64,000 nucleotides of DNA from the human T2T-CHM13v2.0 reference genome, Homo sapiens, in assembly GCF_009914755.1 (NCBI RefSeq), contig NC_060939.1. One strand, 5' to 3'. Below the pieces are notes generated by a model that was not told the origin of the DNA, ran no database searches, and was given only the letters and a program-made list of their open reading frames with translations. Shown here in pieces: positions 42,353-43,984 of the stretch. Every line of letters starts with the position of its first letter. Position 1 is the first letter of the stretch. A program made the translations under genes and the position numbers.

Positions 42353-42888
42353 TATTTGGGTGCAGAAGACATGAATTGAAGGTTTTATTCTGTTTTTATA
42401 TGGCATGTTACATGAACAATTAATTTAAGCTTTTTTGAACTCAATTTTTTTTTTTTTTTGAGATGGAGTTTTGCTCTTGTTGCCCAGGCTGGACTGCGAT
42501 GGCATGATCTCGGTTCACCGCAACCTCTGCCTCCCAGGTTCAAGCTATTCTCCTGCCTCAGCCTCCCAAGTAACTGAGAAGACAGGTGCTTGCCACCATG
42601 CCTGGCTAATTTTGTATTTTTAGTAGAGACAGGGTTTCTCCATGTTGGTCAGGCCAGTCTCGAACTCCCAACCTCAGGTGATCTGCCCACCTCAGGTGAT
42701 CCTCCCAAAGTGCTGGGATTACAGGCCTGAGCCACTGTGCTTGGCCTTGAACTCAGTTTTTCTACAAATAACCTGTATAGGCTTGCTCTTGCTGTGTAAC
42801 AAAACCCACCCCAGGACTTATTGGCTTGAAATAGTAACCATTTATTATTTCTCGTGGCTGTACATCAGCTAGGTGGTTCTTCTGGACA
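42353..42888. repeat. Left arm of a 224-bp inverted duplication (MIR-like + MLT1 3' end), split by AluSp
   Basis: After removing the Alu and one TSD copy it aligns ungapped to the reverse complement of 43761-43984 with 28 mismatches in 224 bp. Confidence 0.93.
42449..42746 (-). mobile_element. AluSp
   Basis: Sp diagnostics 'gctcttgttgccc', 'tcaccgcaacc', 'tttctccatgttggtcagg'; TSD ttgaactca(a/g)tttt at 42435-42448 and 42747-42760; internal acctcaggtgat duplication. Confidence 0.93.
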
Positions 42889-43439
42889 CTTGGGAGTGAT
42901 TAATTTACCCCAATCATTTACATTTTAATTTACTCCCAATCATTTAAATGATTAAAACTTAAAAGATTAGTGGCAAATTAATCACTCCAAGACCTCAATA
43001 ACACCTGTGCATTCCCAAAAGCTTGCTGTTCATGCTGTTTGTGAAAAAAGCAAAACAATTGGACAGGGACAGGAGACAGAATGGAAAACAACTAATCTCC
43101 TGGAAATTCACAGAAATCTTAAGAAGGGTTTATTTACGCAAATTTCATGCATAACATTAGGAAAGAAGGTTCAAGTCAGTTTTTGCTAAACTCTCAAACC
43201 AGAGGGGTTACCTCAGCTGATATTCAGGCTACAAATGAATTAGTACATTATTTTATATTAACAGGTATATATCCCAAGTAATGAATATATTGTTAAAGTA
43301 CAATTTTTCTGATTATAACAGTAAAGTTTAAAGTACAAAAATGTATACAATTAATATTAGCAAAACGGAAAAAGTGAAAATTACCTATAATTTCCTCACT
43401 CCCAAAAAGTTACCATTTGTAGTTTGTTATCTATGTTTT

Positions 43440-43875
43440 CAGGTTTTTCACCCCACTCCTTGAATCTCAGTCAGCTTTGTGAGTCACGAGATTCATATTG
43501 ATAAATGACAAGGGTCAAGTTCCCAACCTAGTCCTCAAAAAGCATTGCACACTTCTACTCTTTCTCTTGAAACTTTTCTTTGTGAAATAAACAAGCTCAA
43601 GCCTTAGAGACCACATAAAAGATAAACCAGTTGTCCTAAACAACGCCATCCCAGACTAGCCAGCAGCTGGCCAACTCCCACACAGGTAAGGAGGCTAGCC
43701 AAAGTCAAAGAGCTGCCTCCCCAAACCACAAATGACTACAGACACATGAATGACCTGTCTTGTCCAGAGAAACCACCTAGCTGACCTACAGTCATGAGAA
43801 ATAATAAATGGTTACTCTTTCAAGCCAATGAGTCTTGGGGTGGGTTTTGTTACACAGCAGTAGCTAACTTATACA
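43440..43875 (+). mobile_element. MLT1 (G/H-like) MaLR LTR
   Basis: 3' end 'catgagaaataataaatggttactctttcaagcca...ttgttacacagcagtagctaacttataca'. Confidence 0.8.
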
Positions 43876-43984
43876 TGTTATCTGCAGAAAAATTGAATTC
43901 ACAAAAGCTCAAATTACTTGCTCATGTAACATGCCATATAAAAACAGAATTAAAACTTCAATTCATGTCTCCTGTGTCCAAATA
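43761..43984. repeat. Right (source) arm of the inverted duplication
   Basis: MLT1 3' end (43761-43875) joined to an antisense MIR-like piece (43876-43984); retains the empty Alu site. Confidence 0.93.

What the first reader, a model, noticed from the sequence alone, without database searches (positions are those of the whole stretch)
42353..43984. Hidden 224-bp inverted duplication of an MLT1/MIR junction, dated by an AluSp in one arm
Seen: 42353-42888 (minus the Alu and one TSD copy) is the reverse complement of 43761-43984 with 28 mismatches in 224 bp (87.5%), no gaps, and a longest perfect run of 29 bp (attctgtttttatatggcatgttacatga); the arms are 872 bp apart. Both arms carry the same junction between two unrelated ancient repeats, so independent insertions cannot explain it. 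The MLT1 continues inward only on the right, marking that arm as the source, and the right arm keeps the empty Alu site. Inference: a primate-era template-switch or fold-back duplication older than the AluSp insertion. Repeat masking would hide it as ordinary fragments. It could form a long non-Alu dsRNA stem or promote inversion of the spacer, and the Alu may have stabilised it by breaking symmetry.
Basis: partly seen in the sequence, partly recalled or inferred. Interest (0 to 1): 0.75.

Follow-up and report, generated by a model that had tools for sequence, protein, structure and literature searches.

The report
Old inverted copy of an LTR edge
A 224-base stretch spanning the end of an ancient retroviral LTR and the DNA beside it was copied in reverse orientation 872 bases away tens of millions of years ago; it is a real but ordinary scar with no sign of function.

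Summary
42353-42449 and 42748-42888 are the ungapped reverse complement of 43888-43984 and 43761-43901. Counted apart and summed, 28 of 224 positions differ and the longest perfect run is 29. A minus-strand Alu with a 14-15-nt target duplication splits the left arm, and the right arm keeps the empty site.

The virus remnant is real. A solitary LTR of about 430-450 nt lies on the + strand at about 43425/43445-43875. It belongs to a dispersed old family (38 other genomic hits, 73-81% identical). That family links to an element that print names MLT1D, of ERVL-MaLR. The subfamily is unresolved.

Each arm holds the last ~115 nt of this LTR plus ~109 nt of flank that is found nowhere else in the genome. 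This is therefore a local duplication made after the LTR inserted, not two separate insertions.

Arm divergence (K2P about 0.14) puts the duplication at roughly 35-53 My, before the Alu inserted. Print places the LTR family in early placental mammals.

The mechanism cannot be settled here: a templated inverted copy or a staggered-break micro-inversion both fit. The MIR and AluSp labels could not be tested. No transcript or functional element overlaps the arms. Low interest.

The parts
42353..42449 (-). Left arm, outer piece: an inverted copy of the host flank next to the LTR. Its last 14-15 nt are the first copy of the Alu target-site duplication.
   Evidence: Ungapped reverse complement of 43888-43984, 86 of 97 identical. 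It has no other match in the genome.
42450..42747 (-). Alu inserted into the left arm after the duplication. Its tail is a T run at the left end on the + strand.
   Evidence: Two 7SL-like halves lie on the minus strand (Rfam RF00017, 29.2 and 31.6 bits, below the gathering score of 70). The block 42435-42750 is masked. The flanking 14-nt copies differ at 1 position, and the right arm has the empty site. Four CpG remain. The best other genomic Alus are 86-89% identical (39 others scored of 6032 candidates). The subfamily was not testable.
42748..42888 (-). Left arm, inner piece: the second copy of the Alu target duplication (to 42761), a little flank, then the inverted copy of the last ~115 nt of the LTR (about 42774-42888).
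   Evidence: Ungapped reverse complement of 43761-43901, 122 of 141 identical. An nhmmer search with the LTR as query finds only 42775-42889 on the left side.
42889..43760 (.). Spacer between the arms (872 nt). 42889-43424 is found nowhere else in the genome. From about 43425/43445 onward it is the 5' part of the LTR.
   Evidence: A genome search with 42889-43400 finds only itself. LTR family homology begins at 43445-43458.
42889..42991 (.). Quasi-palindrome that abuts the inner breakpoint of the left arm.
   Evidence: Inverted pair 42893-42926 / 42955-42988 at 74%. The DNA hairpin energy is -18.4 kcal/mol, z -4.5, and 0 of 200 shuffles fold as well. No other genomic copy was found.
43425..43875 (+). 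Solitary LTR of an ERVL-MaLR element of MLT1 type, subfamily unresolved. The 3' end is firm. The 5' end lies somewhere between 43425 and 43445.
   Evidence: Of the 38 dispersed genomic hits to its 3' part, 17 end at 43873-43876 and none goes beyond 43884. nhmmer against 9 fetched copies gives homology over 43448-43884. Taking each of 33 family copies as its own query, 26 hit the place of the MLT1D named in PMC11007075. A direct local alignment gives 62 of 84 identical on the + strand, and 0 of 300 shuffles reach that score. No repeated internal sequence lies beside it.
43761..43984 (+). Right arm: the last ~115 nt of the LTR (43761-43875) plus ~109 nt of flank (43876-43984), uninterrupted. It holds the empty Alu site at 43888-43901.

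Best explanation
Shown: an ERVL-MaLR (MLT1-type) LTR inserted here, in the era of early placental mammals, and now stands as a solitary LTR on the + strand. Much later, one local rearrangement left a second, inverted copy of 224 nt. That copy spans the LTR's 3' end and the adjoining host DNA and lies 872 nt to the left. Afterwards an Alu landed in the left copy, and both copies decayed at about the neutral rate to 87.5% identity.

Inferred: I favour a templated inverted copy as the mechanism. In that case a broken or stalled DNA end at about 42352/42889, next to a hairpin-prone quasi-palindrome, copied 224 nt from the opposite strand nearby and was then rejoined. This could be two template switches, or break repair that used nearby DNA as a patch.

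Inferred: the structure has no function today. It is a datable scar. The duplication is about 35-53 My old (sampling and rate range about 22-73 My), and it is older than the Alu insertion.
For: Real, post-insertion duplication:
- The arms are 87-89% identical, while no other genomic copy exceeds 81%.
- None of the 38 dispersed hits crosses the LTR end by more than 9 nt, and the outer flank has no other match.
- The spacer and the left flank are found nowhere else in the genome.

LTR identity and strand:
-, together with the table in PMC11007075.
- The orientation chain agrees for 6 of 6 copies.

Order of events:
- The Alu, with its target duplication, lies only in the left arm, and the empty site lies in the right arm.

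Age:
- 19 transitions and 9 transversions in 224 positions give K2P of about 0.139 by my arithmetic.
- T = D/0.13/2, as used in PMC5016936, gives about 53 My. A rate of 0.2% per My, which I recall and did not check, gives about 35 My.
- PMC10735291 (passages) puts AluSc activity near 45 My. It describes MLT1 members other than A1 and C2 as widespread in eutherian genomes and absent from opossum.

Mechanism hint:
- The quasi-palindrome abuts the inner breakpoint.

No function:
- No transcript or functional element lies over the arms. The nearest gene is a lncRNA 20 kb away, and NR2F2 is 300 kb away.
Against: - No junction signature was found. Reading the junctions shows no microhomology, no target duplication and no A-tail around the left arm, so nothing points to a particular mechanism.
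- The direction (which arm is the copy) cannot be set without outgroup genomes.
- My only hint that the right outer junction is ancestral is a by-eye likeness of 43985-44015 to my recalled picture of MIR. That is no tool result.
- The small palindrome's arms are more diverged (74%) than the big arms, so it may be unrelated to the event.
- nhmmer with the window LTR itself found nothing at E<=10 in the printed MLT1D place. The family link rests on other copies and on a local alignment tested against shuffles.
- Gene conversion between the arms would make the date too young.
Confidence: 0.55

Rival explanations
1. Micro-inversion with staggered breaks. The segment now at 42889-43984 was inverted in a primate ancestor. 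One of the two breaks was staggered by 224 nt, and fill-in left that stretch at both ends in inverted orientation. Under this reading the left arm sits at its original place, and the right arm moved with the inverted segment.
For: The picture fits as well as the templated copy does: one arm stays contiguous with the spacer and the other does not. PMC1885836 (passages read) reports such inverted duplications at 17 of 29 Drosophila inversions. Their median size is 321 bp (range 46 bp to 1.9 kb), mean identity is 88%, and often only one breakpoint is duplicated. Blunt junctions without microhomology (reading) suit end joining.
Against: The model was documented in flies and for much larger inversions. 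I read no human example (the microinversions in PMC8755829 are 17-33 nt). My recalled, untested reading that the old repeat continues past 43984 would make the right outer junction ancestral.
Confidence: 0.3
2. Two independent insertions of one composite repeat family, or the terminal inverted repeats of a single transposon.
For: The inner ~115 nt of each arm does belong to a dispersed family.
Against: None of the 38 dispersed hits extends into the outer 100 nt. The outer part, the spacer and the left flank have no other copies. The arms are closer to each other than to any other copy. The searches score only the best candidates and do not show closed regions, so absence is not absolute.
Confidence: 0.02
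3. A working hairpin locus: the arms are kept because a transcript folds into long double-stranded RNA, or because they mediate switching of the spacer's orientation.
For: If the region were transcribed as one RNA, the minimum-energy fold pairs 79 of 97 and 125 of 141 arm positions in register on the + strand. PMC5398296 (passages) reports 7.8% of human intergenic inverted duplicates as expressed.
Against: No annotated transcript or functional element overlaps the arms. Rfam finds nothing in the arms. Divergence of 12.5% with an ordinary transition excess looks neutral. An Alu was tolerated inside one arm. The longest identical run is 29 nt. In yeast, rearrangement rates fell about 58-fold at 86% homology and about 31-fold with a 1.5-kb spacer (PMC10164571, passages).
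Confidence: 0.05
4. Chance similarity or an assembly artefact.
For: None.
Against: Genome-wide E-values are 9.3e-40 and 8.2e-27. The two copies differ at 28 sites, and one carries an old Alu, which no assembly error would produce.
Confidence: 0.01

Closest known systems
Inverted duplicates of the human genome, as catalogued with Inverted Repeats Finder (PMC5398296, passages read)
   Same: Two reverse-complementary arms separated by a spacer of up to 1 kb, in an intergenic region that overlaps repeats. That study counts 4,315,271 such pairs in human, and its longest class has arms of 36-10,000 nt.
   Different: This pair is at the long end for arm length. It is split by an Alu, so a finder would report two pairs. 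Its origin can be proved from a one-off LTR/host junction. I could not see whether that catalogue lists it, because supplements are closed and I did not ask for them.
Inverted duplications flanking inversions made by staggered breaks (PMC1885836)
   Same: The size (224 nt against a median of 321 bp), the identity (87.5% against a mean of 88%), non-repetitive junction sequence present at both ends of a segment, and often only one breakpoint duplicated.
   Different: The inverted segment here would be only about 1.1 kb. The species is human rather than Drosophila. Inversion of the spacer has not been shown.
Replicative template switching, fold-back inverted duplication, and templated insertions at breaks (PMC2621351, PMC3907307, PMC7954356 and PMC11724301: search listing and abstract starts only; PMC5110952: passages read)
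   Same: A nearby stretch is copied in inverted orientation with a normal-copy spacer between source and copy. The class 2 templated insertions in PMC5110952 lack target duplications and A-tails, as this one does.
   Different: The short-range events described there are mostly tens of bases, and the fold-back events are kilobases to megabases with terminal deletions. This one is 224 nt and interstitial. No microhomology is visible after about 40 My of decay.
Solitary MLT1 LTRs of ERVL-MaLR (PMC10735291, PMC5753468 and PMC11007075, passages read)
   Same: A dispersed old family with units of about 430-450 nt. The 3' part is homologous to a printed MLT1D. No internal sequence lies beside it.
   Different: The subfamily is not assigned. 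A second, partial, inverted copy of its 3' end exists nearby, and that copy did not arise by retrotransposition.

Membership tests
ERVL-MaLR LTR, MLT1 type | Belongs to a dispersed multi-copy family with a common, sharp end | tested here: met
   There are 38 dispersed hits at 73-81% identity. Seventeen of the 38 end at query 113-116 (43873-43876), and none goes beyond 124. Homology to 9 fetched copies spans 43448-43884. Counts are lower bounds, because only 40 of 61 candidates were scored.
ERVL-MaLR LTR, MLT1 type | Homology to an element that print names MLT1 | tested here: met
   PMC11007075 (table and section 4.2.6, passages) names an MLT1D on the + strand as SAMMSON exon 2. Its T2T place was predicted from the gene start. 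Of 33 family copies, 26 hit chr3:70049492-70049657, 12 of them at E<=0.001. Window 43781-43869 aligns there on the + strand at 62 of 84, and 0 of 300 shuffles reach the score, while the minus strand is at chance (143 of 300). Against this, nhmmer with the window LTR alone gave no hit at E<=10, and a MaLR in SUPT16H (PMC3647538) gave none either. The match covers only the 3' ~90-130 nt.
ERVL-MaLR LTR, MLT1 type | LTR ends TG...CA with a short target duplication (5 nt for this class, recalled) | tested here: inconclusive
   The family homology stops at a CA at 43874-43875. TG dinucleotides occur at 43425 and 43434, but the 5' end is resolved only to within 43425-43445. No abutting 5-nt repeat was seen. 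An 8-nt direct repeat at 43425 and 43876 is reached by 76 of 2000 shuffles.
ERVL-MaLR LTR, MLT1 type | Subfamily assignment (MLT1A to MLT1O) | not testable with these tools
   No repeat library is on hand. Going to inner genes is barred, and none are present here anyway.
MIR SINE (outer ~109 nt of each arm) | Homology to the MIR family | not testable with these tools
The genome search finds only the partner arm. nhmmer in the window gives one hit at E 0.1. That candidate finds nothing itself.
Alu, S subfamily 'Sp' | 7SL-derived dimer with an A-tail and a long target duplication | tested here: met
   Two RF00017 matches on the minus strand lie within 42458-42745, below the gathering score. A T run sits at the left end, and the 14-nt flanking copies differ at 1 site.
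Alu, S subfamily 'Sp' | Diagnostic positions of AluSp | not testable with these tools
   This needs subfamily consensus sequences, which are not on hand and not to be typed. Identity of 86-89% to the best of 39 scored genomic Alus and 4 remaining CpG fit a middle-aged Alu and say no more.
Inverted duplicate in the sense of PMC5398296 | Arms of 10-10,000 nt, reverse-complementary, spacer 0-1,000 nt | tested here: met
   The inner pair has 141-nt arms and an 872-nt spacer.
Segmental duplication | At least 1 kb long and at least 90% identical (recalled definition) | tested here: not met
   224 nt at 87.5% identity.
Transposon with terminal inverted repeats | The whole unit recurs elsewhere with target duplications | tested here: not met
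   The outer arm part, the spacer and the flank have no other genomic copy.
Staggered-break inversion footprint | The segment between the arms is inverted relative to the ancestral order | not testable with these tools
   No other primate genome is on hand.

The most novel reading that the evidence does not exclude
The two arms are the footprint of a fixed micro-inversion of about 1.1 kb, made by staggered breaks in an anthropoid ancestor. This would be a human example of the inversion-with-duplication mechanism described for Drosophila, at a scale far below what inversion surveys resolve.
Probability: 0.3. Interest if true: 0.35.

Novelty: new member of a known kind. Interest (0 to 1): 0.15.

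Why it matters
It matters little for biology. The locus lies in a gene desert and shows no sign of use.

Its value is methodological. A one-off junction between an LTR end and host DNA proves a sub-kilobase duplication that is too short and too diverged for segmental-duplication catalogues, and that repeat annotation would probably list as fragments. With the Alu, the locus gives an ordered series of three datable events: the LTR, the inverted copy, and the Alu. These could serve as presence/absence markers in primate comparisons. If outgroups show an inverted spacer, it would also document a very small staggered-break inversion in the human lineage.

Tried and rejected
1. MIR label. A genome search with the outer flank, nhmmer in the window, and a search with the one weak candidate at 62230-62520/62430 found no dispersed relatives. 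The label therefore stays untested.

2. Which arm changed more. I polarised the 14 arm differences in the LTR part with other family copies, using counts only. With the 29 copies found using the right arm (28 aligned), the copies side 9:1 with the right arm. With the 8 copies found using the left arm and aligned on it, the split is 6:7. The result follows which arm was used to find the copies, so it is inconclusive.

3. The 5' end of the LTR. Local alignments with six copies reach only 43445-43486. A genome search with 43390-43660 found one other copy.

4. Naming through a printed MaLR in SUPT16H (PMC3647538). No hit for the window LTR over 32.5 kb of the gene. All hits came from an Alu in the flank of one copy.

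5. Naming through MLT1H1 of SAMMSON. Only two weak hits (E 0.065-0.067), and not at the predicted place.

6. Extension of the arms. There is no further similarity beyond either end of either arm (and my reading).

7. Target duplications, A-tail or microhomology around the left arm. None seen by reading.

8. Transposon reading of the quasi-palindrome. It has no other genomic copy. The Rfam matches there are sub-threshold plant miRNA hairpins, which I take as chance.

9. Cross-species dating, inversion polymorphism, expression and editing. No tool was available for any of these.

10. Supplementary files were not asked for. The lists in PMC5398296 and PMC10735291 might name this locus or its LTR.

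I did not search print for this locus itself, so I make no claim that it is undescribed.
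Full report
**Observation.** Reading 42100-44300, the repeat finder and a sensitive blastn self-comparison of 36000-50000 agree. 42353-42449 is the ungapped reverse complement of 43888-43984 (97 nt, 11 mismatches). 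42748-42888 is the ungapped reverse complement of 43761-43901 (141 nt, 19 mismatches).

The 14 nt at 43888-43901 serve both pairs. The left arm carries that stretch twice, on either side of a 298-nt insert at 42450-42747. I counted the two pieces apart and added the counts, leaving out the second copy of the 14 nt. That gives 28 differences in 224 positions, made up of 19 transitions and 9 transversions. One of the 30 raw mismatches is in CpG context, and the longest perfect run is 29. The inner ends are 872 nt apart.

Chance is excluded. In the whole genome the right arm's best matches after itself are the two left pieces (E 9.3e-40 and 8.2e-27). In the 64-kb window, 13 inverted pairs of at least 60 nt lie within 5 kb of each other. 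Eleven fall in masked Alu-sized repeats, and only these two do not.

**The insert.** The insert is an Alu on the minus strand. Rfam gives two 7SL-like halves on the minus strand within 42458-42745 (29.2 and 31.6 bits, below the gathering score of 70). A T run forms its left end. The two flanking 14-nt copies differ at one site, and the right arm holds the uninterrupted site.

The Alu keeps 4 CpG. It is 86-89% identical to the best of 39 other genomic Alus that were scored out of 6032 candidates. That fits a middle-aged Alu. The 'Sp' call needs subfamily consensus sequences that are not on hand and may not be typed.

**The virus remnant: is it real, and of what family?** A genome search with the right arm returned 38 dispersed hits. 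All lie within query positions 4-124 (43764-43884) at 73-81% identity. Seventeen of the 38 end at 113-116, three run to 121-124, and none goes further. This is the signature of a repeat family whose unit ends at about 43875.

Searches by nhmmer against nine fetched copies extend the homology leftward to 43448-43458 in four of them. Local alignments reach 43445. The unit here is therefore about 430-450 nt, from 43425/43445 to 43875.

The flanks on both sides have no other genomic copy. No internal proviral sequence is recognisable beside the LTR, so it is a solitary LTR. No inner gene is present and none was needed.

There is no repeat library in the toolset, so I named the family through print.
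- PMC11007075 (table and section 4.2.6, read as passages) lists an MLT1D of the ERVL-MaLR superfamily on the + strand as the whole second exon of SAMMSON.
- Using the gene's T2T start, I predicted its place and fetched 10 kb.
- The window LTR alone gave no nhmmer hit at E<=10.
- Taken one by one as queries, 26 of 33 family copies hit the same 166-nt spot, chr3:70049492-70049657, at the predicted 3' end of that MLT1D. Twelve of them did so at E<=0.001.
- A direct local alignment of window 43781-43869 with chr3:70049537-70049623 on the + strand gave 62 of 84 identical, and 0 of 300 shuffles reached the score. The minus strand scored at chance (143 of 300). The left arm's LTR part gave 45 of 62, with 0 of 300 shuffles.
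- The strand chain (window to copy, copy to chr3) agrees in 6 of 6 copies.

The LTR is therefore on the + strand with its 3' end at 43875. It is of MLT1 type, and the subfamily is open. This rests on two assumptions. One is that the rows of the paper's table follow the order of the names. The other is that the offset between assemblies is constant over 13 kb. The gene start falling inside the first listed interval supports the second assumption. An earlier attempt with a MaLR in SUPT16H (PMC3647538) gave nothing.

**Age of the LTR.** PMC10735291 (passages) states that MLT1 members other than MLT1A1 and MLT1C2 are widespread in eutherian genomes and absent from opossum. [quoted passage not shown] The long alignments with other copies here are 65-73% identical (370, 243, 146 and 123 columns). 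This is compatible with an age of the order of 100 My, but it mixes subfamilies and is only a rough check.

**What the arms are.** Each arm holds the last ~115 nt of the LTR plus ~109 nt of the DNA just beyond its 3' end. Such a junction is created once, by one integration. No dispersed copy crosses it. The outer part matches nothing but its partner. The arms are closer to each other than to any other family member. On the right, the LTR runs on inward for another 315-335 nt. On the left, it stops at 42888.

This is a local duplication made after the LTR inserted, not two insertions. It is older than the Alu, which sits in one arm only.

**Age of the duplication.**
- From the counts, the raw divergence is 12.5%, the JC distance is 0.137, and the K2P distance is about 0.139 (my arithmetic).
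- With T = D/0.13/2, as used for LTR pairs in PMC5016936 (passages), the age is about 53 My.
- At 0.2% per My, a rate I recall and did not check, it is about 35 My.
- The binomial error on 28 of 224 widens this to roughly 22-73 My.
- PMC10735291 quotes AluSc activity near 45 My and AluJo near 75 My, so an S-type Alu landing after the event is consistent.
- Gene conversion between the arms would bias the date downwards.

**Mechanism.** Two models fit equally on the evidence that tools can give.

(a) Templated inverted copy. A broken or stalled end between 42352 and 42889 copied 224 nt from the opposite strand 872 nt away and was rejoined. This could be two template switches, or a patch at a break. 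PMC5110952 (passages) describes class 2 templated insertions that lack target duplications and A-tails.

(b) Inversion of 42889-43984 by staggered breaks. In PMC1885836 (passages), 17 of 29 Drosophila inversions carry inverted duplications, with a median of 321 bp and mean identity of 88%. In 12 of the 18 with duplications, only one breakpoint is duplicated.

The junctions show no microhomology, target duplication or A-tail (reading).

One feature hints at a fragile or stalling site. A quasi-palindrome at 42889-42991 abuts the inner breakpoint. Its DNA hairpin energy is -18.4 kcal/mol, with z of -4.5 and 0 of 200 shuffles folding as well. Its own arms are only 74% alike, so it is probably older than the event. 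It has no other genomic copy.

I lean to (a) for two reasons. One is this palindrome. The other is that, by eye and from memory only, the old repeat in the outer arm part seems to run on past 43984. That is not a tool result.

**Function.** None is indicated. The locus lies in a desert 20 kb from the nearest lncRNA and 300 kb from NR2F2. No transcript or functional element overlaps 40000-47000, and no Rfam family matches the arms.

Folded as one RNA, the arms would pair: 79 of 97 and 125 of 141 positions in register on the + strand, and 76 and 128 on the minus strand. That says only that complementary sequences pair.

As DNA, with 87.5% identity, a longest run of 29 nt and a spacer of 872 nt (1170 nt counting the Alu for the outer piece), the pair is a poor substrate. 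In yeast, rearrangement rates fell about 58-fold at 86% homology and about 31-fold with a 1.5-kb spacer (PMC10164571, passages).

**Comparison and novelty.** Inverted duplicates are pervasive. PMC5398296 (passages) counts 4,315,271 in human. This is one more, at the long end for arm length, and below the size and identity bounds of segmental duplications (recalled definition). It is a new member of a known kind. Its only distinction is that a one-off LTR/host junction proves its origin and that three events can be ordered. Interest is low.

**Limits.**
- The genome searches score only the best candidates, skip very common words and hide closed regions, so 'no other copy' is not absolute.
- No other primate genome, no repeat library and no expression data were on hand.
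- Supplementary files were not asked for.
- For PMC3907307, PMC2621351, PMC7954356 and PMC11724301 I saw only the search listing and the start of the abstract.

Noticed in passing
window 42889-42991: A quasi-palindrome lies exactly at the inner breakpoint of the left arm. It also contains a tandem pair of ~20-nt units. The DNA hairpin energy is -18.4 kcal/mol, z -4.5. No other genomic copy was found. The only Rfam matches are sub-threshold plant miRNA hairpins.
   Followed up: partly
window 43425-43432 and 43876-43883: An exact 8-nt direct repeat sits at the likely 5' start of the LTR and again immediately after its 3' end. It could be a target duplication, an LTR-start echo or chance; 76 of 2000 shuffles reach a match this long.
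   Followed up: partly
window 42450-42747 and 44019-44345: Two Alus in the same orientation, 75-79% alike, bracket the spacer and the right arm at 1.58 kb spacing. A direct Alu pair of this kind is the usual substrate for deletions.
   Followed up: no
window 42774-42888 versus 43761-43875: Family copies found with the right arm side with it at 9 of 10 decided sites. The left arm as query found only 8 dispersed copies, against 38 for the right arm. With those 8 copies the split is 6:7. A real excess of change in the left copy, for example from error-prone copying, is neither shown nor excluded.
   Followed up: partly
window 62230-62430: This stretch looks to me, from memory only, like an old MIR-type SINE. 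Within it, 62345-62413 gave the only weak nhmmer match (E 0.1) to the outer arm part. It finds nothing itself.
   Followed up: partly
window 40000-47000: The reference's own soft-masking (blocks of 100 nt or more) covers only the two Alus and 46073-46211. The LTR and the arms are unmasked.
   Followed up: no
window 42148-42181: A run of a short A/C-rich unit in the left flank has a 34-nt, 97% match on chrY. It is low-complexity sequence and probably has no meaning.
   Followed up: no
window 37700-39700 and 47100-49300: Clusters of Alu-sized masked blocks lie in both orientations on either side of the locus. They give most of the inverted pairs found in the window.
   Followed up: no
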